Source: a bacterium (GTDB lineage: Bacteria > Acidobacteriota > Blastocatellia > HR10). From it: 53,530 bases of DNA. Within the stretch, counting starts at the first letter, position 1. Every line of letters starts with the position of its first letter. Positions 22,057 through 45,845 of the stretch are shown in pieces. Below the pieces are notes generated by a model. The model saw nothing but the letters and a program-made list of their open reading frames with translations. It made no database searches and was not told the origin of the DNA. The stretch covers positions 1 through 53,530 of the forward strand of contig JBEPZV010000016.1 in assembly GCA_041640655.1 (NCBI GenBank). Reading direction: 5' to 3'. A program made the translations under genes and the position numbers.

Positions 22057-23403
22057 TCACCCCTCAATCGAGGCCTGGCAGCGCTCGTCCCTCTCCCGTT
22101 CGATCTCCGCGCCGAGGGAGCGAAGCGCGATATCGAGCCGATCATATCCCCGCTCCAAATGCTCGACCCCCTCGATCACGCTCTCCCCATGCGCGGCGAG
22201 CGCTGCCAGAAGGAGCGCCGCCCCGCCCCGAATGTCCGTCACCCGCACCGTCGCCGGGTGAAGCGGCGCCGGACCATGAATGCGCATAGCGTGGAAGAAT
22301 TCGGGGCGATCGTCCTCGAGGTTGAAGTTGTACACGGCGTCCGGATCCTCGACGGGGGGATTGAAGAACTCGATGCGCGCGCCCATCCGCTGCAACTCCC
22401 GCGCGTAGTGAAAGCGGTCTTCGAAGACGGTCTCATGAAGGACGCTCACGCCGTGAGCCCGTGTGAGCACCGGAGCGATGAGCGGCTGCCAATCGGTCAT
22501 GAAGCCCGGATGCGGCGCCGTTCGAATGAACACCGGCCGCAAGGGCTCTTGAGACCAGACGCGCCACGTCGTCCCGACACACGCGAATCCTGCGCCCATC
22601 TCCTCCAACACGGCGAGGAACGCGCGCACATCAGCCGGTCGCACATCTTCGATCTCGATGTCTCCTCCCGTCACCAGCGCCGCGCAGGCGAAGGTGACCG
22701 CTTCGTTGCGATCTGGCAACACGCGATGCCGAGCGCCGCGCAACCGCGAGACGCCCTCGATGCGAATCGTTCGCCGATCCGTGCGACGAATGCGCGCCCC
22801 CATCGCCGTCAGGAAGGCGATGAGATCATCCACCTCGGGCTCTTCGGCAGCGTTCTCCAAGACGGTCTCTCCGCGCGCGCACGCGGCCGCCAGAAGCATG
22901 GCCTCGGTCCCCGTGTGCGTATTCTTGGGGAAGCGATATCGCGCGCCGCGCAACTGTTTGGCGCGAACGCGCAGATACTCGCCACACTCGTCTACGTGCG
23001 CGCCCATAGCCTCGAGTCCGGCGAGGAGGCGATCCAGAGGGCGCCGCCCGATTTGATCTCCTCCGGGCTGAGGGACGCTCGCCTCACCGAAGCGCACAAG
23101 CAGCGGTATCAGCAAAAGCGGCGAAGCCCGGGTTCGGTCCACCGAGCCTGCGCGCACGTGCGCGTCCTGAAGGGAGCGCGGATCAATGATCCACGTCGTT
23201 GGATCGGAGCGCGTCGCTCGCCCTCCTAGACTCTCGATCGCGCGCGCGACGATGCGCACGTCCTCGACATCAGGGACGTTCTCCAAGACGCTCGGGCCGT
23301 CGGCCAAGAGGGCAGCGATCATCGCTTTGAACGCCGTATTCTTGGCCCCGCCGACGCGCACGCGCCCGCTGAGCGGTCGTCCGCCTCGGACTTTCCACCT
23401 CAT
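22057..23403 (-). CDS. murA: UDP-N-acetylglucosamine 1-carboxyvinyltransferase (Asp at the Cys115-equivalent position)
   Basis: GAKN, RAS, PGGDQIGRRP, PGFMTD, FEDRF, DIRGGAA, ERGY; ATG overlaps the murB stop. Confidence 0.93.
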   Translation of the reverse strand: MRWKVRGGRPLSGRVRVGGAKNTAFKAMIAALLADGPSVLENVPDVEDVRIVARAIESLGGRATRSDPTTWIIDPRSLQDAHVRAGSVDRTRASPLLLIPLLVRFGEASVPQPGGDQIGRRPLDRLLAGLEAMGAHVDECGEYLRVRAKQLRGARYRFPKNTHTGTEAMLLAAACARGETVLENAAEEPEVDDLIAFLTAMGARIRRTDRRTIRIEGVSRLRGARHRVLPDRNEAVTFACAALVTGGDIEIEDVRPADVRAFLAVLEEMGAGFACVGTTWRVWSQEPLRPVFIRTAPHPGFMTDWQPLIAPVLTRAHGVSVLHETVFEDRFHYARELQRMGARIEFFNPPVEDPDAVYNFNLEDDRPEFFHAMRIHGPAPLHPATVRVTDIRGGAALLLAALAAHGESVIEGVEHLERGYDRLDIALRSLGAEIERERDERCQASIEG

Positions 23404-24335
23404 GCGTCCCACGCCCCCAGGTATCGAATCTCCTCCTCCAGCAGAATGCCGAACCGATCGCGCACGGCCGCCTTCGCCAGCGCGATCAGCGCCCGAATCT
23501 CCCGCGCCGTCGCTCCGCCGACGTTGAGGATGAAGTTGGCATGCTTCTCGGAGATCTGCGCTCCCCCCAACCGATACCCCTTCAACCCGCAGGCCTCGAT
23601 CAGGCGACCGGCGTAATCCCCCGGAGGATTCTTGAAGACGGAGCCCGTGCTCGGCCCCGAAGGTTGATGCTTCCGCGCTTCGAGCATCCGCTGCATCCTC
23701 GCCTCGATATCGGAGCGCGATGCCCGATACCCCCGCAGCCGGGCCGCGAGCACCACGTCGCTCGTTCGTTGAAATCGGCTCCGCCGGTACCCGAAGTCCA
23801 ACTGCGAGGACGGCCAGACGACCACCTCACCCCGATCATCCACCACCTCTACATCGAGCACGCGCTCGCCGATCCATTCCTCCCGCGTCCCCGCATTTCC
23901 GACGATCGCTCCCCCCAACGTTCCGGGAATTCCAACGAGGAACTCAAACCCTCCGATCCCGGCCTCACACGCGCGGCGCGCCAGGGCCACGAGATTCGTC
24001 CCCGATTCGGCCCGGATCTCCTCCCCACGCACCGCCACGCCTTCGGCGCGATTGAGGATGACGAGCCCTGGGATTCCGGCATCGGAGACGAGGACATTAG
24101 CTCCGTATCCAAGGACCGTCACTGGCAGCCGAGCCTCGCGCGCCACGCGAACGGCAGCCACCAGGTCCGCTCGCGTGCGGGCGATGAAGAACCATTCGGC
24201 CGGTCCTCCCACGCGCCAATTGACATAGGGCGCCAGTCGCTCGCGACGCCGAAGCCGCCCCGGTCCCAACTGCCTTTCGAAGGCGCGCGCGAATTCGACG
24301 GCCGCCACCTCGGCGACTTCGCTCTTCTCGACCAT
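23400..24335 (-). CDS. murB: UDP-N-acetylmuramate dehydrogenase
   Basis: VGGPA, GYGANVL, GIPGTLGGA, FGYRRS, GSVFKNP, SEKHANF. Confidence 0.95.
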   Translation of the reverse strand: MVEKSEVAEVAAVEFARAFERQLGPGRLRRRERLAPYVNWRVGGPAEWFFIARTRADLVAAVRVAREARLPVTVLGYGANVLVSDAGIPGLVILNRAEGVAVRGEEIRAESGTNLVALARRACEAGIGGFEFLVGIPGTLGGAIVGNAGTREEWIGERVLDVEVVDDRGEVVVWPSSQLDFGYRRSRFQRTSDVVLAARLRGYRASRSDIEARMQRMLEARKHQPSGPSTGSVFKNPPGDYAGRLIEACGLKGYRLGGAQISEKHANFILNVGGATAREIRALIALAKAAVRDRFGILLEEEIRYLGAWDA

Positions 24336-24363
24336 CTCGCTCCTTGATGGGCGCCAGCGCAGC

Positions 24364-25212
24364 TCAACTCATGCGGAGAATCTCTTCCAAAGCCGTGCGC
24401 CCGTCGGTCCGCTCATCGCGATATTTCACGATGAGCGGGGTCAGAATCGAGAGCCCGTGGGCGCGCGCGAACTCTCCGGGAGCTGGCCGTGCGCCTGGGA
24501 CGACAACCGCGCCCTCCGGAATCACCAGCGGCTCCTCACGCGTGCCGCGATAGATGCGCTCGTGCACGAGATCATAGACCGGCGTCGAGCCGGTCAGGAT
24601 CACGCCCGCGCCCAACACGGCCCGCCGTTTGACGATCGTCCCTTCGAAGATGCCGCACTGGCTCCCCACGAGCACCTCATCCTCGATGATGACCGGCCAT
24701 GCCCCGGGAGGCTCCAGCACCCCACCGATCTGCGCTCCGGCGCTCAAGTGCACGCGCCTGCCGATCTGCGCGCAGGAGCCGACCAGCACATGGGAATCCA
24801 CCATCGTCCCCTCGTCCACGTATGCCCCCACGTTGATGTATGAAGGGGGCATGACGATGACGCCCGGCGCCAGATACGCCCCATCGCGAATCGTCGTCCC
24901 CCCGGGCACGATGCGAATCCCCAGGCGCATCCCCTCGAGCGCCTTCAAGGGATAGGTGTCCTTGTCGAAGAATCGGAACTGCGCGTTGATCGAATAGTCG
25001 GCGAGCGCGCCGATGCGGAATCCGAGCAAGATGCCCTTCTTCACCCAAGGGTTCACGATCCACTGCCCCCGAACGGGTTCAGCGGCTCGGATCCGCCCTT
25101 CGTTGAGCTGCCGTTTGAACTCCTCGAAGATCGGACGCCCCCTCTGCCGCGCCTCCTCAACGGGCGCGTCAAAGAGCCGTTCGATCTCAGCTCTGAGCCG
25201 CGTGTGCTCCAT
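24364..25212 (-). CDS. dapD: tetrahydrodipicolinate N-succinyltransferase
   Basis: [37 protein letters not shown] hexapeptide repeats. Confidence 0.93.
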
Positions 25213-26116
25213 GTCCTGCTCCCGCCGGAATGAGATTCAGATCGGCGAGGATCTGCCGCAGCCGCTCGCGCGTCTCCGCGCGCGGCGGGACCAGCGGCAG
25301 GCGATAATTTTCCTCGATCAGCCCCATCATGGCCAGGGCAGCTTTGACGGGGATCGGGTTCGTCTCCAGGAAATTCCCGCGCATGAGCGGCAGCAGCCGA
25401 TAATGGAGCGCGCGGGCGCGCGCCCAATCTCCGGCGAGCGCCGCCGCCACCAGCTCCCGCATCTCGGCCGGCGTCTGATTGGCGATGACGGAGATCACCC
25501 CATCCCCTCCGAGCGCGAGAATCGGCAACGTCCACGCGTCGTCTCCGGAGAGGACGAGGAATCCCTGCGGTCGCACGCGCAAAAGCTCCATGATCTGCTC
25601 CAGGTTCCCCGACGCCTCCTTGATGCCGATGATGTTCGGAATCTCCGCCAGACGCAAGACCGTCCTCACGTCCAGATTGCATCCGGTCCGACTCGGCACA
25701 TTGTAGAGGATCACGGGGAGGCGCACCGACTCCGCGATCGCTCGGAAGTGCTCGTAGAGCCCCTCTTGCGTCGGCCGATTGTAGTACGGGGTGACCGAGA
25801 GCACGGCGTCGGCCCCCGCTCGCTCAGCTTGCCGCGCCAGCTCCACGGCTTCCTCGGTCGCGTTCGTCCCAGCTCCCGCGATCACGGGCACACGCCCACG
25901 AACGCGCTCGACGACGCGGCGAATGATCTCACGCTGCTCCTCCGGATGCAGCGTGGCGCTCTCGCCCGTCGTCCCACAGGGGACGAGTCCATCCATTCCC
26001 GCCTCGAGCTGGAAATCCACCAGCGCCTCCAACCGCGCATAATCCACCTGCCCATCGCGCCGAAACGGCGTGACCAAAGCGACAAAGCATCCGCGAAATC
26101 GGCTCGTTCCAGTCAT
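25187..26116 (-). CDS. dapA: 4-hydroxy-tetrahydrodipicolinate synthase
   Basis: [39 protein letters not shown]. Confidence 0.96.
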
Positions 26117-26865
26117 ATGCCTCCTCCTTGAAGACAGTGATCCACGACCTCCTCGAACGAAAAGATGCCTCGACGGTCTTTCACAAACCGGGCAGCGGCG
26201 AGAGCTCCCAGGGCGAAGGCCCGCCGATGGCGGACCGTGTGCGTGATCTCCAGAGTCTCAAACGGAGCGTCGAACCCCACCAGGTGCGTCCCCGGATGCG
26301 CGCCAGCGCGCACCGAAGCGACGCTGATCCCCTCAGACGGGATGCGCCCCTCAAGTCGCGTGACCAGGTGCGTCTTCTGCTCCAGATGCTCGAGCAGAAT
26401 CCGCCCCAAGCGAAGTGCTGTACCGCTCGGATGGTCGGCCTTCCGCCGATGATGCCACTCGACGACGTAGGGATCGAAATCGGAGAGATGCCGAAAGAGA
26501 CGCGCGCCGTACGCCACCAGGCGAAAGAGCACGTGGATGCCCAGGCAGAAATTCGGTCCATAGACGAACCCGATCTCCGCGCGCTCGACTACCGGTCGCA
26601 CGTCATCCCACCGATCGTACCACCCGGTCGTGCCGACGACCATGGGCTTGCGCGCCTCGGCAACCCGCTGAATATTGGTCACGACGGCCTGCGGCGTGGA
26701 GAAATCCACGCAGACATCCACTTCGCGCAGAGCTTCGGCGGTCAGCCCTCGCCCCTCCGGATTCGTGCGCGAGGTGAAGACGGGCCCGACTTGAAAGCCC
26801 GCCTCAAGAGCCGCCCGTTCGACTTCTCGCCCCATTTGCCCGTATCCGATCAACGCGATGCGCAT
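26113..26865 (-). CDS. dapB: 4-hydroxy-tetrahydrodipicolinate reductase
   Basis: GYGQMG, DFS, GTTG, EWHHRRKADHPSGTA; GGAGGT SD before ATG 26865. Confidence 0.93.
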   Translation of the reverse strand: MRIALIGYGQMGREVERAALEAGFQVGPVFTSRTNPEGRGLTAEALREVDVCVDFSTPQAVVTNIQRVAEARKPMVVGTTGWYDRWDDVRPVVERAEIGFVYGPNFCLGIHVLFRLVAYGARLFRHLSDFDPYVVEWHHRRKADHPSGTALRLGRILLEHLEQKTHLVTRLEGRIPSEGISVASVRAGAHPGTHLVGFDAPFETLEITHTVRHRRAFALGALAAARFVKDRRGIFSFEEVVDHCLQGGGI

Positions 26866-26875
26866 CGCGACCTCC

Positions 26876-26914
26876 AAAATAAAAAGCCCCTCGAAACCGA
26901 GGGTTTCGAGGGGC
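26876..26914 (-). terminator. intrinsic terminator within the dapB leader (attenuator)
   Basis: Minus strand GCCCCTCGAAACC-ctc-GGTTTCGAGGGGC-TTTTTATTTT: perfect 13-bp stem with U-tract, immediately before the dapB SD. Confidence 0.9.
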
Positions 26915-26939
26915 CCGATCCACACCGGCCCGGATGGGG

Positions 26940-27104
26940 CTACGTCACCCCCCCAGGCCGAGGAGGACCGAGCCCCGTGCGCTTAACCCGCTTCATCTCC
27001 ACACGTTCGCGCAGGGTATGATCACCTGCTTGAGCGAAGACGCCCGACGCGCTCCCACGCGCTTCACCGACCGCCCAGTTCATCGTTCGCGCTTCCGCGT
27101 TCAT
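26940..27104 (-). CDS. putative leader peptide of the dap operon (54 aa, or 18 aa from ATG 26996)
   Basis: ORF ending MKRVKRTGLGPPRPGGVT*; its only two Lys codons precede an antiterminator-forming segment. Confidence 0.5.
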   Translation of the reverse strand: MNAEARTMNWAVGEARGSASGVFAQAGDHTLRERVEMKRVKRTGLGPPRPGGVT

Positions 27105-27113
27105 CGCGTGATG

Positions 27114-27142
27114 AGGATGCCACATCTCCCTCATGGTGTCAA
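27114..27142 (-). promoter_or_regulatory. putative sigma70 promoter of the dap-mur operon
   Basis: Minus strand TTGACA (27142-27137), 17 bp, CATCCT (27119-27114). Confidence 0.55.
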
Positions 27143-27225
27143 GCCGATCATCGCGCGCCTCTCGCGATATGACGAGCTGGCGCTCACGAAAGCTGAGAAC
27201 GGGCGCCGCCGGGGAAGACCACCCC

Positions 27226-29739
27226 TCAGAACGGCATAGGCTTCACGCCGAACTCGCGAAAGAGCGCGCGTTGGTTATAGAGCTCCGGCCGCACAACCGG
27301 GAGCCATCGGAAGAACCGATTCGGCGGAATGAACGCGCTCTGCCCCGAGGGGAGGCGATTCCATCCGCGCGGCGGATTCGAGAGCTCCACGACCTGCGTG
27401 TACGTCGCCCGATTCGCCTTCGGAACCGGAGGGCCCACGTGAAATCCGAAGAGGTGGCGAAAGCGGATCATCTCGCGCGCGCTCCATGGCATCATCCACA
27501 TCGGCCCATACACGCGCGCGAGGTCCTCCACGGCCTCTTGCGCGCTCCTGGCGATGACCTCGCGCCAGTCCGCGCCGTTGAAATAATCGCGCGCGGGAGG
27601 GACGCCAGACCGCGCGCCCTCAAGGACGTGGAGCACCGTGTTGATGTTCACCTCCGAGAGCCCCTCATCGCCCAACTCATCGACGAAGATGTTCCGGACG
27701 AGGCGCTGCCAGATGGCCTCGAAGACCACATTCGTCGGGTCCACGCCGGGCGCAGCGATGGCATCGGCGTAGAGCGCGCCGTCCCAATTCTGCAGAAGCT
27801 GCGCGACCCCCCCCAAGCGCGGATCAGTGGAACTCGTTTCCTCCAGCGCCCGCGTGAGATATTCCCTCAGGAATTCCATCTTCGGGCCGGCGTCATCGAA
27901 GCGCGCGATGTCTTCCTCCAACGCCAGAAGATCCTCGACCCCTATCCGCGCATCGCGCGCCTCCTCGGAAGCGCGTCGGAGAAGCCGCATGGGCTCGGCC
28001 AAGAGATTCATGATCCGCAACACGCGATGTTGCTTCCCGAAGAGCACGTCGTCCGGATTATCGAAGTCGACCGCCGGCTTGTTGTTCCAATTCGCGAGCC
28101 ACCCCTGTCGCGGATTGCGCACATGAGGCAGGGGGTGCCTCGCGGCACTCCACTCGGCTTCCCCCGTCCCCGGCAGGGGGAGGCGCGGATCGTATTCACT
28201 CGGGCGAACGGGCACCCATCCCACGAGCCAATAGGCGATATTTCCGTCCACGTCCGCGTAGAGAAAGTGGTGCGAGGTCGGGATCCGCTGAACCGCTCGC
28301 TCGAACTCCTCCAGTGTCTGCGCTCGATTGATCTCCAGAAACCCCACCCATGTCTCCGTCTCCTTCATCCAATGAGCCCGCTTGAGCGTGATCGCGATGT
28401 GGTTGGCTTCGTCCACGTAGAGCACAGGACCGTGAACCGTCCGCCTCACCAGGATCGTCTTCGTCTTCGCTGCGCGCAGCGGGAAACCGAGCGGAGACGT
28501 CCGAATGGCGATGACTTCCTCACGCACCTCCATGCGCCGATACGCCCCTTGGTAGAGGTACTCCTCGTGATCGGCGGGATTCAACTGCTCAATGTAGAGG
28601 TCGGCATTATCACCGGGACCGCTGGTCGTCGTCCACGCGATGCGCTCATTGTGCCCGATCAAGACAGCCGGTCCACCGGCAAAGGCCATCCCCGTCACAT
28701 GCCACCCCGGAGCCTTCAGATGCACCTCGTGCACGATGTCTGGATAGAGGAATCCCATCTGCGGCCCACCGAGCAACAGCGGACGTCCCGTTCGCGACCT
28801 CGTCCCGTCAATGACGAATCCGAAGCTCCCGAACGTGACGGGCAATCCCAAGAGTCGAAAGAGCGCTCGACGCCGCTTCTGCCACTGCTCATATGCGGTG
28901 AGGAAGGCGCGAAGATCCGGAAGCCGACGGTAAAACGAGAGCAGAGGATTCCGTCGCCCGGAACGGGTGCGCGCGGCGAGCGCGCGGGCGCTTCGCCCCT
29001 CGCCCCACAGCTCCTCGGGCGGCACGGTCACCGGGGCTTCCGGATCGTTCACCCACCGGAGGTCTTCGAAGATCGCTTCGCCCGCCTCCGGTCCATGCCG
29101 GCTCACGAGCTGCTGGTAGAGGACGAGATTGCGCAACTCCCGCCCGCCGCGCTCGCCGAAGATACGCGTGGCCAATCGGCAGATGGCGATCGAATCCGTG
29201 ACCGTCCACGGTTCTGGGAAGTATCCGAGGATGTGGAATTCCCAGGGCAACTTTCGCATGGGATCCTGGCGCGCCTCAGCCAGGTACCGATTGATCCCAT
29301 CGCGATAGGCGGCGATGGCGCGCCGGGCGAATGCGGGCATCGCTTCGTACATGGCTTGATATTCCGACTCCGTGTACCCGTGCTGACGCTGCTCGACATC
29401 CAGCTCGACAAGCTCCACCGGCCCCCTCACCTCGAGGCTCGTCACCATGTTGCCGAGAACCTCAGCCAAACGCCCGCGCGCGGCCCGCCGAAAGACCTCC
29501 AGCTGCCAGAGCCGATCCTGCGCGACCGCGTACCCATAGGCCTCGAAGAGATCGCGCTCGTTCCCCGCCTCGATGCTCGGCCGACCGTATGCATCCCGGG
29601 AGATTCGAGCTGTCGAGATACTCGTCTCCTTGGCGCGATTGGCCGTGACCGCCGGTATCCCCAAGGCCTCCCAGAGGAAGATCGAGAGACACGTAGTCCC
29701 CACGCTCCATCGGGTGAAACGTCGAAATAGCCCACCCAT
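27226..29739 (-). CDS. penicillin acylase family (Ntn-hydrolase) protein
   Basis: RDAYGRP, GYAVAQDRLWQLE, predicted beta-chain start G|SFGFVIDG, GPQMG, YADVDGNIAY, NWNNKP; N-terminal signal-like segment. Confidence 0.88.
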   Translation of the reverse strand: MGGLFRRFTRWSVGTTCLSIFLWEALGIPAVTANRAKETSISTARISRDAYGRPSIEAGNERDLFEAYGYAVAQDRLWQLEVFRRAARGRLAEVLGNMVTSLEVRGPVELVELDVEQRQHGYTESEYQAMYEAMPAFARRAIAAYRDGINRYLAEARQDPMRKLPWEFHILGYFPEPWTVTDSIAICRLATRIFGERGGRELRNLVLYQQLVSRHGPEAGEAIFEDLRWVNDPEAPVTVPPEELWGEGRSARALAARTRSGRRNPLLSFYRRLPDLRAFLTAYEQWQKRRRALFRLLGLPVTFGSFGFVIDGTRSRTGRPLLLGGPQMGFLYPDIVHEVHLKAPGWHVTGMAFAGGPAVLIGHNERIAWTTTSGPGDNADLYIEQLNPADHEEYLYQGAYRRMEVREEVIAIRTSPLGFPLRAAKTKTILVRRTVHGPVLYVDEANHIAITLKRAHWMKETETWVGFLEINRAQTLEEFERAVQRIPTSHHFLYADVDGNIAYWLVGWVPVRPSEYDPRLPLPGTGEAEWSAARHPLPHVRNPRQGWLANWNNKPAVDFDNPDDVLFGKQHRVLRIMNLLAEPMRLLRRASEEARDARIGVEDLLALEEDIARFDDAGPKMEFLREYLTRALEETSSTDPRLGGVAQLLQNWDGALYADAIAAPGVDPTNVVFEAIWQRLVRNIFVDELGDEGLSEVNINTVLHVLEGARSGVPPARDYFNGADWREVIARSAQEAVEDLARVYGPMWMMPWSAREMIRFRHLFGFHVGPPVPKANRATYTQVVELSNPPRGWNRLPSGQSAFIPPNRFFRWLPVVRPELYNQRALFREFGVKPMPF

Positions 29740-29951: not shown

Positions 29952-31790
29952 TCAAACTTCCGATGCGGGATGATCGGGATTCACCGCCGGGTCAGAGGTC
30001 CGATGCTTCCGCCTCCGATAAAAGATCGAGCGATGCAAGCCCGAACGCCGCGCTGCTTTGGCGACGTTCCCCCCCGCCTCTTCCAGCGCGCGGCGGATCA
30101 AGGCGTCCTCCAACTCGGCGATATACGCGCGCGCGATCCTCAGAATGGCGCGACGACGCCGCTCCAAGTCCGCGCGATCCACCGGTGGCGTGCGCAGATA
30201 GGCGCGAAAGGGATGCTTCTCCGCATCGAGGGCGCGCCACCGGCCGAGAAGCGATTCCGGTAAATCTTGAACGCGAATCTCATCCGATGGGGCCAGCAGG
30301 ACAAGCCGCTGCACGAGGTTCTCCAGCTCCCGAACGTTGCCGGGGAACGAGTACTCCTGGAGCGCGATCAACGCCTCGGGATGAAACCGGAGCGTCGGAC
30401 GTCCGGCGGCCGGAGCATATCTCTTCAGGAAGTGCAGCGCCAGCAGGGGGATATCTTCCGGACGTTCGCGAAGTGGCGGGATGCGCACAGGGATGACATT
30501 CACGCGATGGTAGAGCGCTTCCAGGAACTTCCCCTCGGCGACCATCTGGCGAAGCACGCGACTCGTAGCGGCGACGACGCGAACGTCCACGCGAATCGGC
30601 CGGCTTCCCCCCAGACGCTCGAACTCCTGGAACTGCAGGAAGCGCAGCAGCTTCGCTTGCACGGGGAGAGGGAGCTCGCCGATCTCATCCAGGAAGATCG
30701 TCCCCCGATGGGCCAACTCTACGCGTCCCAGGCGACGCTCGAGCGCACCGGTGAACGCCCCGCGCTCATGTCCGAACAGCTCCGATTCGGCCAGCGTCTC
30801 CGGCACGGCCGCGCAGTTGACGACGACGAACGGTCCCTGGGCTCGCGGGCTCAACGCGTGAAGCGCGCGCGCGAGCATCTCCTTCCCCGTCCCCGATTCT
30901 CCCTCGAGCAAGACGGTCACCGAAGAAGGCGCCACGTGGACGATCGTCTGCACGACCCGCCGCCACTCCGGATTGACCCCCACCAGACCCTGCAAGACCT
31001 CGCCGGGCGGCTCGCGCGAGAACGCGTCGCGAGCGCTCAGCGCCACGCGCAACCGATCGGCGGCTTCCAGATACACGGCGATGATCTGCGCGATCCGGGC
31101 GAGGAAGTCCCGATCCGCCTCCGCATACATCGCGGCGACGGTATTGTTCTCCAGATAGATCGCGCCGAAGCTCACGCCGCCGATGGCCAGCGGGGCCACG
31201 AGGACCGAACGCACGCCGCGCCGCACGACGCTCGTCTCCTGCGCATATGCGGGATCGGAGAGCGCATCCCGAATGAGCAACGTTTCGCCGGAGGCGAGCG
31301 CGCGCCACAACAGCGTCCGACTGAAGGCGTGCTCCTCCGCCGCCAAATCCGCCGAGCGGACATTCCGAGCGCATGCCAGCAGCACGCGCGTCGGATCCAC
31401 GCCGATCTCCCCCCCGATGCGCAGCCCTCCCGGATACAGCACCAGAAGGATGCGCTCCGAGTGCGTCTCGGCGAGCAGGAGATCGGCCGCCCGCTCCAGA
31501 AAGTCTTCCGAAGACGCGCTGTGGAAGTAGAGATCGGCCAACTGTCCGGCGACGCGCCCCAGGCGGCTCTCCTGCACAAGCGGCTGCAGCTCGATGAGCG
31601 CCTGAGTGAGCTTCTCCAGCTCATCGCTGCGAATCTGCCCGAGCGCCCTCGCGAGCGCGCTCAGCAGACGCCGGACCTCGGACTCCGAGAGATCCTCCTG
31701 CTGCGCACAAGTGGCGCGGCGCTCCAATTGCTCGAGCGCCCATCGAACGTCACGGAGAAGATCCGCAGCTCTCTCCCACCACGTGCTCAT
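29952..31790 (-). CDS. sigma54-dependent enhancer-binding protein (helical N-terminus, GAF, AAA+, Fis-HTH)
   Basis: GESGTGKE, ESELFGHERGAFTGA, FLDEIGE, FPGNVREL, GNVAKAARRSG; GAF motif VRSVLVAPL...IYLEN. Confidence 0.92.
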   Translation of the reverse strand: MSTWWERAADLLRDVRWALEQLERRATCAQQEDLSESEVRRLLSALARALGQIRSDELEKLTQALIELQPLVQESRLGRVAGQLADLYFHSASSEDFLERAADLLLAETHSERILLVLYPGGLRIGGEIGVDPTRVLLACARNVRSADLAAEEHAFSRTLLWRALASGETLLIRDALSDPAYAQETSVVRRGVRSVLVAPLAIGGVSFGAIYLENNTVAAMYAEADRDFLARIAQIIAVYLEAADRLRVALSARDAFSREPPGEVLQGLVGVNPEWRRVVQTIVHVAPSSVTVLLEGESGTGKEMLARALHALSPRAQGPFVVVNCAAVPETLAESELFGHERGAFTGALERRLGRVELAHRGTIFLDEIGELPLPVQAKLLRFLQFQEFERLGGSRPIRVDVRVVAATSRVLRQMVAEGKFLEALYHRVNVIPVRIPPLRERPEDIPLLALHFLKRYAPAAGRPTLRFHPEALIALQEYSFPGNVRELENLVQRLVLLAPSDEIRVQDLPESLLGRWRALDAEKHPFRAYLRTPPVDRADLERRRRAILRIARAYIAELEDALIRRALEEAGGNVAKAARRSGLHRSIFYRRRKHRTSDPAVNPDHPASEV

Positions 31791-43376: not shown

Positions 43377-43433
43377 GCGGAGATCATCGTGGCCCCTCAA
43401 GAGAGAGGAGCCGCACGCGGTAGAGGAGAGGCG

Positions 43434-44435
43434 ATGATGCGCATCGCGGGTATTGATGGAGGGGGAACGAAGACGATCGCTCTGATCGCCGACGAACGGC
43501 TGCGTGTGCTCGGGGAAGGGCGTGCCGGCCCGTCGAATTTCCTGCGCGTGGGTGTGGATGCGGCCGTGGCGGCGGTTGTGACGGCATTGGAGGACGCCTG
43601 CCGCCAGGCCAGATGCACGCTCTCGGAGTTGGCCGCGCTCGGGATCGGGCTGGCAGGAATCGCGCATCCGGCACATCATCGGCGGATGCGCGAAGCCTTG
43701 CTTCGCGCGCTCACCGAGCGCCGGGCCGGCATGCGCGCGTCTTGGACCGCGGAGGACCTGCTGCTGACCACGGATGCGGAGATCGCGCTCTATGGAGCGA
43801 CCGACGGCCAGCCGGGCGTCGTCATCATCGCCGGGACCGGTTCGATCGCTTACGGGATGAATGCGCACGGACAGAAGGCCCGCTCCGGCGGATGGGGACC
43901 GACCTTCGGTGACGAAGGCAGCGGATACGACATCGCGCGGCGAGCGCTCGTGGCCGTCGCTTCGGCATACGACGGACGGTTGCCGCCCACGTTGCTGACC
44001 GACCGGGTCTGCCAATACTTCGGGATCGAGAGTCCGGCCGATCTGCCCCGCATCATCTACGGGAGCGAGGCGAGCCCCAACATCGCGCCCTTGAGCGAGG
44101 TAGTCATTCAGGCGGCCCGTGAAGGGGATGCGGTGGCCAGGCACATCCTTCGCGAGGCCGGTCTGGAATTGGCGCGCACGGCCATCGCCGTCATCAAACG
44201 GTTGCGCTTGCAGCGGGAGGCATTTCGCGTCTCCTATGTGGGCGGCGTCTTCTCCGCCGGAGAGTTGATCCTGGATCCCCTCCGCGAGAAGATCCAAGAG
44301 GTTGCTCCGAGAGCCGAGCTCGCGCCCCCACTCTTCCCGCCGGCCGTCGGCGCGCTCAAGCTCGTGCTCGCGCGGCTCGACCTCTCGCACCGCGAGGATC
44401 CCACGTGCTCGCTTCACACATTGAGCGCGCGGTGA
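43434..44435 (+). CDS. BadF/BadG/BcrA/BcrD-type N-acetylglucosamine/N-acetylmuramate kinase-like protein
   Basis: GIDGGGTKT, IAGTGS, GGWG, GDEGSGY. Confidence 0.85.
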   Translation: MMRIAGIDGGGTKTIALIADERLRVLGEGRAGPSNFLRVGVDAAVAAVVTALEDACRQARCTLSELAALGIGLAGIAHPAHHRRMREALLRALTERRAGMRASWTAEDLLLTTDAEIALYGATDGQPGVVIIAGTGSIAYGMNAHGQKARSGGWGPTFGDEGSGYDIARRALVAVASAYDGRLPPTLLTDRVCQYFGIESPADLPRIIYGSEASPNIAPLSEVVIQAAREGDAVARHILREAGLELARTAIAVIKRLRLQREAFRVSYVGGVFSAGELILDPLREKIQEVAPRAELAPPLFPPAVGALKLVLARLDLSHREDPTCSLHTLSAR

Positions 44436-44456
44436 GCGCCTTTGAGGAGGAACGCG

Positions 44457-45845
44457 ATGGGCTGGGAGATCGCGGGGTATCGGGAGATCGTTCGCGGCCA
44501 TCTGCATCTGGATGGAGTGAGTGCTCGGCATCTGGCCCAGCAGTACGGGACGCCGCTTTTCGTCTTCTCGGAATCCCGCGTGCGGGCTAATGTCCGAACG
44601 CTGCTGGAGCCCGCTCGCCGCGTCCATCCGCGCGTGAAGATCTGCTATGCGGCGAAAGCGAATTCTCTGTTGGCCATCCTGCGGGCCGTTCGCGAGGCCG
44701 GCGCCGACATCGAGGTCAATAGCGGCGGTGAACTCTACAAAGCGCTGCGCGCCGGGTTCCGTCCCGATCAGATCGTCTTCAACGGTGTGAGCAAGACGGT
44801 CCAGGAGCTGGAGGAGGCGATCCGCGCCGAGATCTATGCGATCAACGTGGACTCGCTCGCGGAGCTGGATCTGATCGCGACCGTCGCTGAACGGCTGGGG
44901 AAGCGCGCGAACGTCGCGCTCCGTCTGGTCCCGGAGATCGAGACGGGATCGCACGCTGGCTTGCAAACGGCGCTTCTCACGTCGAAATTCGGCCTCTCCC
45001 CCTCGGAGATCCGCGAGGGCTTTCGGCGCGCGCTCGCCTATCGCCGCGCGATTCATCTGGTGGGGCTTCACGTCCACGTCGGTTCGCAAACGCCGACGAG
45101 CGCGCCGTACGTTCGAGCTTTCGCCCTGATGTGCCGATACGCCGTCGCCTTGTATCGAGAGACTGGGCATCGTCTTCGCCACGTGAACGTGGGCGGGGGG
45201 ATCCCTGTCGTCTACGCGCACGATGACCGATATGCGGCGGACTTCGGTGAGCGCGAACGCCTCTTCCGCACTGCGTGGGACATCGGGACGCTCCTGCGCT
45301 CGGCCTTGGAAGAGGCCACGAGATCCGTCCAGGAGCACGCCGCGCGCGAGCTGCTCGAGGACCTGGAAGTCGTCTTCGAACCGGGCCGTCGGGTGATCGC
45401 GGATGCGGGGACATTGCTGGTGACCATCCGCAACGTGAAGACGCGATCGGAGACGGGCGATACATGGCTCTTCCTCGACGCGGGCACAGAATTGCTCCCC
45501 TCGATGAGCCAATACAAGTGGTACTACCACGTCATCTCGGCGGATCGAACGGCCGAGCCGCATGAGACGCCGTACAAGCTGGCCGGTCCATTGTGCGATG
45601 GGGGGGACGTGTACTTCGACATCGAGGGCACGGGGCGTTTGCCGCAGTACCGGTTCCTGCCGAAGGGACTGACGATCGGCAATGTGCTCGCGGTCCTGGA
45701 TGTCGGCGCGTACACGGTCGCGCAGATGTCCACCTATAACGGGCGACCGCTGCCGGCCATCGTCTTGATCCGTTCGTCCGAAGACGTGCGTCTCATTCGT
45801 CCGCGCCAGACTTACGAAGACCTGGTGCGAGATGAAGCCCTGTGA
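44457..45845 (+). CDS. fold-type III PLP decarboxylase (LysA/ODC family), substrate uncertain
   Basis: YAAKANS (PLP Lys), SKFG, HVGSQ, GGG, EPGR, GPLCDGGD, GAY. Confidence 0.85.
   Translation: MGWEIAGYREIVRGHLHLDGVSARHLAQQYGTPLFVFSESRVRANVRTLLEPARRVHPRVKICYAAKANSLLAILRAVREAGADIEVNSGGELYKALRAGFRPDQIVFNGVSKTVQELEEAIRAEIYAINVDSLAELDLIATVAERLGKRANVALRLVPEIETGSHAGLQTALLTSKFGLSPSEIREGFRRALAYRRAIHLVGLHVHVGSQTPTSAPYVRAFALMCRYAVALYRETGHRLRHVNVGGGIPVVYAHDDRYAADFGERERLFRTAWDIGTLLRSALEEATRSVQEHAARELLEDLEVVFEPGRRVIADAGTLLVTIRNVKTRSETGDTWLFLDAGTELLPSMSQYKWYYHVISADRTAEPHETPYKLAGPLCDGGDVYFDIEGTGRLPQYRFLPKGLTIGNVLAVLDVGAYTVAQMSTYNGRPLPAIVLIRSSEDVRLIRPRQTYEDLVRDEAL

What the first reader, a model, noticed from the sequence alone, without database searches (positions are those of the whole stretch)
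26866..27142. Candidate lysine-sensing leader-peptide attenuator for the dap operon
Seen on the minus strand, in order: promoter TTGACA-17-CATCCT; an ORF ending MKRVKRTGLGPPRPGGVT* whose only Lys codons (AAG at 26993-26991 and 26984-26982) lie just 5' of GGGGCTCGGTCC (26976-26965); and a 13-bp terminator with U-tract (26914-26876) directly before the dapB SD. The 26976-26965 segment can form a 12-bp helix (two GU pairs) with GGATCGGGCCCC (26921-26910), which overlaps the 5' arm of the terminator. An inner stem, CGGCCTGG/CCGGGCCG, extends this hairpin around the stop codon. These are mutually exclusive antiterminator and terminator folds with classic geometry: a ribosome stalled at Lys leaves the antiterminator free. 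Known: dap/lys genes are often controlled by L-box riboswitches, and leader-peptide attenuation is described for the Thermus lysine (AAA pathway) cluster. I do not know of it for a dapBAD operon.
Basis: partly seen in the sequence, partly recalled or inferred. Interest (0 to 1): 0.75.

Follow-up and report, generated by a model that had tools for sequence, protein, structure and literature searches.

The report
Translated leader switch before dapB operon
In front of the genes for diaminopimelate/lysine and early cell-wall synthesis, one uncultured bacterial genus keeps a small translated reading frame that ends inside an RNA hairpin competing with a transcription stop signal, so the ribosome probably decides whether these genes are switched on.

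Summary
The leader is conserved upstream of dapB in all 7 species genomes of the genus and in all 13 close metagenome loci. Rfam gives no L-box, T-box or other known RNA family.

The short ATG-started peptide is only the tail of a longer frame of 45-56 codons. This frame starts at an ATG/GTG 9-15 nt after a conserved extended -10 promoter element, so it is probably leaderless. It is open in all 13 distinct sequences, and all six of its lengths are multiples of three. Its N-terminal two thirds are not conserved as protein.

The frame ends at an invariant TAG at the apex of a covarying hairpin. The 3' strand of that hairpin shares 5 nt with a strong terminator that abuts the dapB ribosome-binding site. 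The two folds are nearly isoenergetic. Modelling gives read-through when a ribosome waits at the first conserved Lys codon, and termination once it enters the hairpin.

I read it as a ribosome-controlled attenuator (about 0.65). Lysine sensing through the invariant K-R-x-K-R codons is the likeliest signal (about 0.4) but is unproven. It is a genus-restricted new variant of a known mechanism.

The parts
27137..27142 (-). -35-like hexamer TTGACA
   Evidence: Sequence. TTGAC[A/G] is conserved in 13 of 13 distinct relatives. No TSS data.
27114..27122 (-). Extended -10-like element TGG-CATCCT
   Evidence: TGn plus a [C/T]A-hexamer lies 17 nt after the -35 in 13 of 13. The consensus scan did not call it.
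26940..27104 (-). Leader ORF of 54 codons plus TAG (MNAEART...KRVKRTGLGPPRPGGVT*). Its start lies 9 nt after the -10 hexamer, so it is probably leaderless.
   Evidence: In 12 sequences this frame has 0 in-frame stops, against 37, 27, 3, 8 and 18 in the other five frames. The six distinct lengths are all multiples of 3. Translation itself is not shown.
26991..26993 (-). First conserved Lys codon AAG (K1). Helix A starts at +21 from the P-site when K1 is in the A site.
   Evidence: Invariant in 12 of 12 rows of A2 and in 13 of 13. Modelling.
26982..26984 (-). Second conserved Lys codon AAG (K2). Helix A starts at +12 from the P-site when K2 is in the A site.
   Evidence: Invariant. Borderline geometry.
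26965..26976 (-). Helix A, the 5' strand of the antiterminator (GGGGCTCGGTCC). It also encodes G-L-G/D-P.
   Evidence: It forms 12 pairs with 26910-26921. Pair types UG/UA/CG and GU/AU vary while staying paired.
26926..26960 (-). Inner hairpin with the stop codon TAG (26942-26940) at its apex
   Evidence: Helices 2 and 3 are 100% and 95.8% paired, and 4 pairs changed on both sides. TAGC is invariant while the rest of the loop varies.
26910..26921 (-). Strand B, the 3' strand of the antiterminator (GGATCGGGCCCC). Its last 5 nt, GCCCC, are also the first 5 nt of the terminator stem.
26876..26916 (-). Intrinsic terminator: stem 26916-26884 (15 pairs including G-U) and U-tract 26883-26876
   Evidence: Terminator scan. 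Nearly invariant in 12 sequences.
22057..26875 (-). Controlled operon: SD GGAGG (26875-26871), dapB (26113-26865), dapA (25187-26116), dapD (24364-25212), murB (23400-24335), murA (22057-23412)
   Evidence: Pfam. ORF coordinates. The genes overlap or lie at most 28 nt apart.

Best explanation
The element is a ribosome-controlled transcription attenuator for the dapB-dapA-dapD-murB-murA operon.

Shown:
- a conserved promoter-like element;
- a 45-56 codon frame kept open from an AUG/GUG next to the predicted transcript start;
- that frame ending at a TAG in the apical loop of a covarying hairpin;
- the outer 3' strand of the hairpin sharing GCCCC with the 5' strand of a strong intrinsic terminator;
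- the terminator touching the dapB Shine-Dalgarno sequence, so the operon can be transcribed only by read-through.

Inferred:
- A ribosome that has entered the hairpin, or sits at the stop codon, keeps helix A away from strand B. The full terminator then forms and transcription stops.
- A ribosome held back at or before the first of the two invariant Lys codons (K-R-x-K-R, directly 5' of helix A) leaves helix A free. The A:B antiterminator takes GCCCC, the terminator loses the pairs next to its U-tract, and RNA polymerase reads into dapB.
- Shortage of charged lysyl-tRNA is the most likely physiological signal.
For: (1) Context. Pfam names dapB, dapA, dapD, murB and murA downstream. The terminator lies 0-25 nt from the dapB SD in all relatives.

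(2) Conservation.
- Present in 6 of 6 other genomes of the genus by blastn.
- Present in 7 of 7 genus genomes, G000 included, by covariance model, one copy each.
- Present in all 13 metagenome loci whose dapB is at least 84% identical.

(3) Coding signal.
- In 12 distinct sequences the frame has 0 stops. The other frames have 37, 27, 3, 8 and 18, and 1.67 per sequence are expected from base composition.
- The start codon lies 9, 10 or 15 nt after the -10 hexamer in 13 of 13.
- ORF lengths are 138, 153, 156, 159, 165 and 168 nt, all multiples of 3.
- Upstream of KRVKR, non-synonymous differences outnumber synonymous ones (41:9, 179:43, 10:3) and there is no third-position excess. The frame is under selection but the peptide is not, which is what a regulatory ORF would show.

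(4) Lys codons. Both AAG codons are invariant. Between them, Arg (CGG/CGT/CGA) and Val (GTT/GTC) show synonymous changes.

(5) Switch.
- The hairpin shows covariation.
- From helix A to the U-tract, the full antiterminator is the MFE in 11 of 12 sequences, by 1.0-4.3 kcal/mol.
- With K1 in the A site, P(antiterminator) is 0.79-0.99 in 11 of 12.
- With the stop codon in the A site, P(terminator) is about 1.0 in 12 of 12. The pattern is the same at 65 C.

(6) No known riboswitch is present.
Against: - No transcript start, 3' end, ribosome or lysine-response data exist. One RNA run was found and nothing from it laid on the region.
- There are only two Lys codons. They are not tandem and not enriched (2 of 54 codons in the window; 2-4 in relatives).
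- With K2 in the A site, the prediction turns to terminator once the ribosome covers +13 or more.
- No conserved anti-antiterminator (a 1:2-type helix) was found upstream. An untranslated leader is predicted to be mixed or mostly antiterminated (AT 0.10-1.00). A stall anywhere in the first ~40 codons would therefore also give read-through, which argues against lysine specificity.
- One of 12 sequences (G003) favours the terminator in every state.
- The overlap is only 5 nt, so any effect depends on kinetics.
- lysA in the same window has no such leader, and no second copy exists in the genome.
- The operon also carries murB and murA, so the relevant signal need not be lysine.
Confidence: 0.4

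Rival explanations
1. A ribosome-controlled attenuator, but not a lysyl-tRNA sensor. There are two versions. In the first, read-through reflects how closely ribosomes follow RNA polymerase in general. In the second, the conserved C-terminal peptide K-R-V-K-R-x-G-L-D/G-P-P-x-P-E acts as a nascent arrest or pause sequence (polyproline, possibly EF-P- or metabolite-dependent). It would hold the ribosome inside the hairpin and so favour the terminator.
For: - Only the last ~17 residues are conserved, while the N-terminal ~38 evolve freely. This is the pattern expected for a peptide acting inside the exit tunnel.
- Arg, Val and the second Pro keep their amino acid through synonymous changes (CGG/CGT/CGA, GTT/GTC, CCT/CCG/CCC). 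A pure Lys-starvation sensor would not need this.
- D-P-P-W and D-P-P-R are strong polyproline pause contexts (recalled knowledge, not from a call).
- A ribosome at the Pro codons or at the stop codon is predicted to give the terminator.
- No upstream element gives specificity.
Against: - Most of G-L-D-P and P-E is also explained by helix A and the inner stem, which constrain the same nucleotides.
- The 3-4 residues before the stop codon vary freely.
- General coupling would not explain why AAG-CGN-NNN-AAG-CGC is nearly invariant.
- There are no experimental data.
Confidence: 0.27
2. An ordinary small-protein gene with its own promoter and terminator. The dap operon would be expressed by constitutive leak through the terminator or from an unseen promoter, with no regulatory switch.
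For: - The frame is conserved and open.
- Gene callers have annotated it as a hypothetical protein in a few assemblies.
- The C-terminus is conserved.
Against: - The N-terminal two thirds show no purifying selection on amino acids.
- There is no Pfam match.
- There are only 6 true homologues among 1.84 billion representatives, all of this leader type.
- The 0-25 nt between the U-tract and the dapB SD leave no room for a separate dapB promoter.
- A stop codon fixed at the apex of a covarying hairpin that overlaps the terminator is unexplained by a plain gene.
Confidence: 0.12
3. An RNA-only attenuator. A protein or small ligand would bind the leader, for example at the direct repeat AAGCG-N4-AAGCG or at the hairpin, and set the terminator/antiterminator balance. 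The open frame would be incidental.
For: - AAGCG occurs twice, 9 nt apart, and is invariant even at the third codon positions.
- The hairpin covaries.
- U42-C43-C44 in the internal loop are invariant.
Against: - The frame is open in all sequences, against 1.67 stops expected per sequence.
- All six ORF lengths preserve the frame.
- TAG is invariant in an otherwise free loop.
- The 5' 120 nt has no conserved structure that could form an aptamer.
- No Rfam family matches.
Confidence: 0.08

Closest known systems
Classical leader-peptide transcription attenuators of amino-acid operons (E. coli/Salmonella trpL, hisL, leuL, thrL, pheL, ilvL). Named from established knowledge; hisL is described in passages read from PMC12360218.
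   Same: - A translated leader frame.
- An intrinsic terminator directly before the first biosynthetic gene.
- An alternative hairpin that takes part of the terminator's 5' strand.
- Conserved codons of the pathway's end product just 5' of the antiterminator.
- With K1 in the A site, helix A begins at +21, as region 2 does in trp (the trp figure is recalled).
   Different: - The frame is 45-56 codons, not 14-32.
- There are two separated Lys codons, not a run.
- No conserved 1:2 pause/anti-antiterminator helix exists.
- The overlap is only 5 nt and the folds are isoenergetic.
- The stop codon sits at the apex of the antiterminator.
- The start is probably leaderless, with no SD.
- There is no sequence homology to these attenuators.
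Leaderless polycysteine short ORFs of mycobacteria (Canestrari et al., bioRxiv 10.1101/834739; abstract and outline read)
   Same: - A short ORF at the 5' end of a leaderless polycistronic mRNA, where ribosome stalling at cognate codons remodels downstream RNA structure.
- Control at the level of the operon.
   Different: [quoted passage not shown] Here the competing structure is an intrinsic terminator.
- There, the codons are runs of Cys. Here there are two spaced Lys codons.
- Leaderless status is inferred here only from promoter spacing.
Leader-peptide attenuation of the Thermus thermophilus lysine (alpha-aminoadipate) gene cluster.
   Same: Lysine codons in a leader peptide controlling a lysine-biosynthesis cluster.
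   Different: - A different pathway (AAA rather than DAP).
- A short peptide with adjacent Lys codons (recalled).
- An unrelated sequence and lineage.
- I could not check the details.
Lysine riboswitch (L-box, Rfam RF00168)
   Same: A leader with a terminator in front of lysine/DAP genes.
   Different: There is no match in the region at E<=1 or in the whole genome. The same search rings in 4 control genomes.
Metabolite-sensing arrest peptides TnaC and SpeFL (passages read in PMC12360218)
   Same: A uORF whose conserved C-terminal part could act within the ribosome, with the ribosome's position near the stop codon deciding termination.
   Different: - Those systems control Rho-dependent termination by masking a rut site, and they stall at the stop codon.
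- Here the terminator is intrinsic and the residues next to the stop codon are variable.
- No ligand is known.

Membership tests
Ribosome-mediated (leader-peptide) transcription attenuator | A reading frame in the leader that is translated | tested here: inconclusive
   Comparative evidence is strong. In 12 sequences the frame has 0 stops, against 37, 27, 3, 8 and 18 in the other frames. The start codon is conserved, and all six ORF lengths are multiples of 3. Translation itself is not observable: no RNA or ribosome data exist.
Ribosome-mediated (leader-peptide) transcription attenuator | Intrinsic terminator between the leader frame and the first structural gene | tested here: met
   A stem of 15 pairs plus a U-tract at 26916-26876, conserved in 12 of 12.
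Ribosome-mediated (leader-peptide) transcription attenuator | An alternative (antiterminator) helix that excludes the terminator | tested here: met
   The A:B helix (12 pairs) shares GCCCC with the terminator. The hairpin covaries. The full A:B fold is the MFE in 11 of 12 sequences by 1.0-4.3 kcal/mol. The overlap is short (5 nt).
Ribosome-mediated (leader-peptide) transcription attenuator | Codons of the regulating amino acid, clustered or enriched, placed so that a stalled ribosome frees the antiterminator | tested here: inconclusive
   Two AAG codons are invariant in 13 of 13 sequences. They are spaced by two codons and are not enriched. The position works for K1 (AT 0.79-0.99 in 11 of 12) and is borderline for K2.
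Ribosome-mediated (leader-peptide) transcription attenuator | Read-through responds to supply of the amino acid | not testable with these tools
   Needs experiments.
Lysine riboswitch (RF00168) | Match to the covariance model at or above the gathering score | tested here: not met
   No hit at E<=1 in 26500-27600. There are 0 matches in G000, while the control rings in 4 known genomes.
T-box leader (Rfam) | Match to the covariance model | tested here: not met
   All 4227 Rfam families were scanned at E<=1. The only hit was anti-hemB at 19.2 bits, E 0.098, far below its 49.5-bit gathering score.
Leaderless sensory short ORFs (mycobacterial Cys type) | Transcript begins at the AUG/GUG of the short ORF | tested here: inconclusive
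   The start lies 9-10 nt (10 of 13) or 15 nt (3 of 13) after the -10 hexamer, with no SD. No TSS data exist. A genome-wide look at promoter-to-start spacing gave only a weak bump at 8-10 nt (18 of 170).
Leaderless sensory short ORFs (mycobacterial Cys type) | A run of consecutive cognate codons, with control by unmasking the next gene's RBS | tested here: not met
   The Lys codons are not consecutive. The competing structure is a terminator. The dapB SD is not predicted to pair with the leader's CCUCC.
Nascent-peptide arrest sensors (TnaC/SpeFL type) | A conserved C-terminal peptide that stalls the ribosome | tested here: inconclusive
   K38, K41, R42, G44, P47, P48 and P50 are invariant, but most of these codons are also constrained by RNA helices. 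Stalling is not testable here.

The most novel reading that the evidence does not exclude
The conserved C-terminal peptide K-R-V-K-R-x-G-L-D-P-P-x-P-E is a regulatory arrest peptide. It would pause the ribosome inside the antiterminator hairpin, at the polyproline stretch, in response to a cellular signal such as lysine, diaminopimelate or EF-P state. That would make this a nascent-peptide sensor that drives an intrinsic terminator for a cell-wall and lysine operon, read from a leaderless mRNA.
Probability: 0.12. Interest if true: 0.8.

Novelty: new variant of a known kind. Interest (0 to 1): 0.5.

Why it matters
DAP/lysine genes are usually described as controlled by L-box riboswitches or by protein regulators. 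In my searches of the held library I found no paper describing a leader-peptide attenuator for a dapB operon.

This case shows an unusual design. A long frame, probably leaderless, is kept open by selection while most of its peptide drifts. Its stop codon is fixed at the tip of an antiterminator that is poised within about 1-4 kcal/mol of the terminator.

If it is confirmed, three things follow:
- The known repertoire of ribosome-sensed amino acids would extend to lysine and the DAP pathway.
- Murein precursor genes (murA, murB) would be tied to the same switch.
- It would be a clean natural example of an ORF selected for being translated rather than for its product.

Its reach is narrow: one genus, one copy per genome.

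Tried and rejected
- **Known RNA families.** Rfam at E<=1 over 26500-27600 gave only a sub-threshold anti-hemB hit caused by the terminator. RF00168 is absent from the genome.
- **Expression data.** One metatranscriptome run held 0.04 of the sampled words, and none of its contigs laid on the stretch. Nothing can be said about expression.
- **A conserved upstream anti-antiterminator (1:2 helix).** RNAalifold on a codon-aware alignment of 12 full leaders found no consensus structure 5' of the Lys codons. Single-sequence folds differ from one another. A possible CYCG/CGRG pairing seen by eye in three sequences was not recovered.
- **Second copies before other lysine genes.** The covariance model R1 found one copy per genome in the genus. 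In the 144 other genomes of the class it gave only weak hits (E>=0.004, at most 20.9 bits) in 7 of them.
  - lysA (window 44442-45845) directly follows another gene.
  - No aspartokinase scored above the cut-off in this 89.8%-complete genome.
- **Wider distribution.**
  - The five other genomes of the order have no such leader before dapB.
  - A crude look for T-runs and Lys-containing small ORFs covered 28 of the 30 dapB loci fetched from a phylum sample. I left out the window's own locus and one locus from a genome flagged unpublished. Nothing similar turned up.
- **Peptide homologues.**
  - The word-index search gave 2 hits.
  - The profile search of 1.84 billion representatives gave 8 hits. 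Six are this same leader frame. Two are long proteins of 1004 and 1294 aa at E 1.6e-7 and 8.9e-5, which I did not inspect.
  - Pfam gave nothing.
  - The genome-contig scan gave 2 true loci and one 14-residue chance match inside overlapping frames of a Methylobacteriaceae MAG.
- **Leader CCUCC pairing with the dapB SD.** Not predicted in any of 12 sequences.
- **Genome-wide evidence for leaderless genes.** Only a weak excess of starts 8-10 nt after promoter-like sites (18 of 170). I do not count this as support.
- **Metagenome loci L041-L055** (partial, or at most 48% identical dapB) were not examined.

Full report
**What is there.** The window's minus strand carries a penicillin-amidase-family gene (27226-29739), a 360-nt gap, and then five tightly packed genes:
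- dapB, 26113-26865
- dapA, 25187-26116
- dapD, 24364-25212
- murB, 23400-24335
- murA, 22057-23412

That covers TTGACA-17-CATCCT, the two AAG codons, GGGGCTCGGTCC, GGATCGGGCCCC, the inner stem, the TAG and the terminator. The dapB Shine-Dalgarno sequence GGAGG follows the terminator directly. The terminator scan reports the stem-loop plus U-tract. The promoter scan does not call the promoter, because CATCCT is a poor -10.

**Not a known RNA.** A scan of all 4227 Rfam families at E<=1 over 26500-27600 gave only a sub-threshold anti-hemB hit lying on the terminator. The lysine riboswitch model finds nothing anywhere in the genome, while it rings in 4 control genomes.

**Conservation.**
- blastn finds the leader in all 6 other species genomes of the genus. 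In the four more distant ones, only the part from the Lys codons to dapB is alignable as DNA.
- A covariance model built on 12 sequences finds exactly one strong copy (E<=1.8e-41) in each of the 7 genus genomes. In 144 other genomes of the class it gives only weak hits, E>=0.004, in 7 of them.
- In the five other genomes of the order, dapB has a different upstream region.
- A metagenome scan with DapB gave 28 loci. All 13 whose dapB is at least 84% identical carry the leader. I did not examine the remaining 15.
- Together this gives 13 distinct leader sequences.
- Named records holding the leader are titled Bacterium HR08 and Bacterium HR10. NCBI lists HR08 under unclassified Bacteria.

GGAG abuts it with no spacer.

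The same frame is open much further upstream in every sequence. An ATG (GTG in one lineage) lies 9 or 10 nt after the -10 hexamer in 10 of 13 sequences and 15 nt after it in 3 of 13. No purine-rich SD precedes it. In the window this is ATG 27104, which gives a 54-codon frame ending at TAG 26940.

Evidence that the frame is kept open:
- Over 12 distinct sequences this frame has 0 internal stops. The other five frames have 37, 27, 3, 8 and 18, and base composition predicts 1.67 per sequence.
- The ORF has six different lengths (138, 153, 156, 159, 165, 168 nt), all multiples of three.
- One metagenome variant (L029) has a 1-nt deletion in the G-run near the end and stops at a TGA two codons earlier, still within the loop.
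- The single-base gap between the -10 and the ATG in alignment A1 is not a multiple of three. This places the start of the coding constraint at that ATG.
- The antisense frame that is open in the window (26934-27239, + strand) has stops in 3 of 12 relatives, so it is spurious.

**What is conserved in the peptide.** Upstream of K-R-V-K-R, pairwise differences within the three subgroups show no third-position excess. Non-synonymous changes outnumber synonymous ones: 41:9, 179:43 and 10:3. The frame is selected but the N-terminal sequence is not.

The C-terminal part is conserved. K38, K41, R42, G44, P47, P48 and P50 are invariant, and R39, L45 and E51 nearly so. Some of this is RNA constraint, because G-L-D-P and P-E lie in helices. 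Three positions keep their residue through synonymous changes:
- the first Arg: CGG/CGT/CGA
- Val: GTT/GTC
- the second Pro: CCT/CCG/CCC, in an internal loop

The peptide has no Pfam match. Among 1.84 billion representatives it has only 6 true relatives, all of them this same leader frame called with various starts.

**The RNA switch.**
- The hairpin runs from 26976 to 26910. It has an outer 12-bp helix A:B, an inner 7-bp helix and an apical 4-5-bp helix.
- It is 99.2% paired across 12 sequences. Four pairs changed on both sides. At one A:B position the pair types are UG, UA and CG. None of 500 shuffles reached the observed covariation score.
- TAGC at the apex is invariant while the other loop bases vary.
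- Strand B shares GCCCC with the terminator's 5' strand.
- Folded from helix A to the U-tract, the full antiterminator is the minimum-energy state in 11 of 12 sequences. It beats the full terminator by only 1.0-4.3 kcal/mol. One sequence (G003) favours the terminator by 4.2 kcal/mol.
- In the antiterminated state a 6-bp residual hairpin remains, 2 nt from the U-tract.

**Ribosome positions.** These are equilibrium models and therefore inference. I folded only the RNA 3' of a ribosome:
- First Lys codon in the A site: antiterminator probability 0.79-0.99 in 11 of 12 sequences.
- Stop codon in the A site: terminator about 1.0 in 12 of 12.
- Second Lys codon in the A site: helix A begins at +12 from the P site. 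The outcome flips from antiterminator to terminator as the assumed ribosome edge moves from +12 to +16.
- No ribosome: mixed, with antiterminator 0.10-1.00.
- At 65 C the pattern is the same.
- No conserved upstream helix that would trap helix A was found.

**Reading.** The dap-mur operon can be transcribed only through this terminator. The leader holds a frame selected for being read, and that frame delivers ribosomes into the 5' half of an antiterminator poised against the terminator. The best-supported mechanism is therefore ribosome-controlled attenuation: translation through the hairpin gives termination, and a ribosome that lags behind gives read-through.

The invariant AAG codons just 5' of helix A, together with the pathway controlled, make lysyl-tRNA supply the likeliest signal. 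The case for lysine is weaker than the case for ribosome control, for these reasons:
- the two Lys codons are not tandem;
- the second one is badly placed;
- nothing gives specificity against stalls elsewhere in the frame;
- lysA is not under this leader;
- murA and murB are co-regulated with the dap genes.

The conserved basic-plus-polyproline C-terminus keeps a nascent-peptide pause model open.

**Comparison with what is known.** The logic is that of classical leader-peptide attenuators. This element differs in frame length, codon arrangement, the missing 1:2 helix, the short overlap and the probable leaderless start.

Leaderless sensory short ORFs are described for cysteine in mycobacteria (10.1101/834739, abstract read), but those act on translation. 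The Thermus lysine leader is recalled only; it was not in the library. Four library searches found no report of a leader peptide before dapB.

Earlier unchecked notes of this scan describe Lys-codon leader ORFs before dapB operons in Chloroflexota, CPR bacteria and one Vicinamibacteria genome. I did not test them. They suggest that the design recurs, and that this case is a divergent form (K-R-x-K-R in a long frame) rather than a unique one.

**Verdict.**
- Observation: confirmed.
- Novelty: a genus-restricted new variant of a known mechanism.
- Status: computationally well supported as a translated attenuator; lysine sensing is plausible but unproven.

Noticed in passing
window 44442-45845 (+): lysA (TIGR01048, over the cut-off) lies in the same window. 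It starts right after another gene (43389-44435), with no leader, terminator or small Lys ORF, so it is not under the dapB-type control.
   Followed up: partly
G000 whole genome: No aspartokinase reached the TIGR00657 cut-off (best 40 bits) in this 89.8%-complete genome. In two other families of the order, dapB directly follows a gene whose end looks like a regulatory-domain protein.
   Followed up: no
L029:963-1189: A metagenome variant whose dapB is 99% identical has G6 instead of G7 in the run before the stop. This shifts the leader frame onto a TGA two codons earlier, still within the apical loop. It could be a real variant or a homopolymer assembly error.
   Followed up: partly
window 26981-26993 (-): K-R-V-K-R contains an Arg/Lys-X-Arg/Lys (+X+) motif. 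One paper's abstract (PMC12583479, search listing only) names this as the context of macrolide-dependent ribosome arrest. It is probably a coincidence here.
   Followed up: no
window 26957-26968 (-): The first and third Pro codons of the leader are CCT in 12 of 12 and 11 of 12 sequences. In a crude codon count of long ORFs in this genome, CCT is only about 9% of Pro codons. RNA pairing may be the reason.
   Followed up: partly
L007:1502-1632 (G003): This species has a mismatch in helix A:B and a U-U mismatch in the terminator stem. It is the only sequence in which the terminator is favoured in every modelled state.
   Followed up: partly
window 26934-27239 (+) and 27133-29730 (+): Long antisense ORFs overlap the leader and the amidase gene. 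The one over the leader has stops in 3 of 12 relatives, so it is a GC-rich artefact.
   Followed up: yes
window 29952-31790 (-): A sigma-54-dependent activator with a GAF sensor domain lies two genes upstream of the leader. No link to the dap operon was examined.
   Followed up: no
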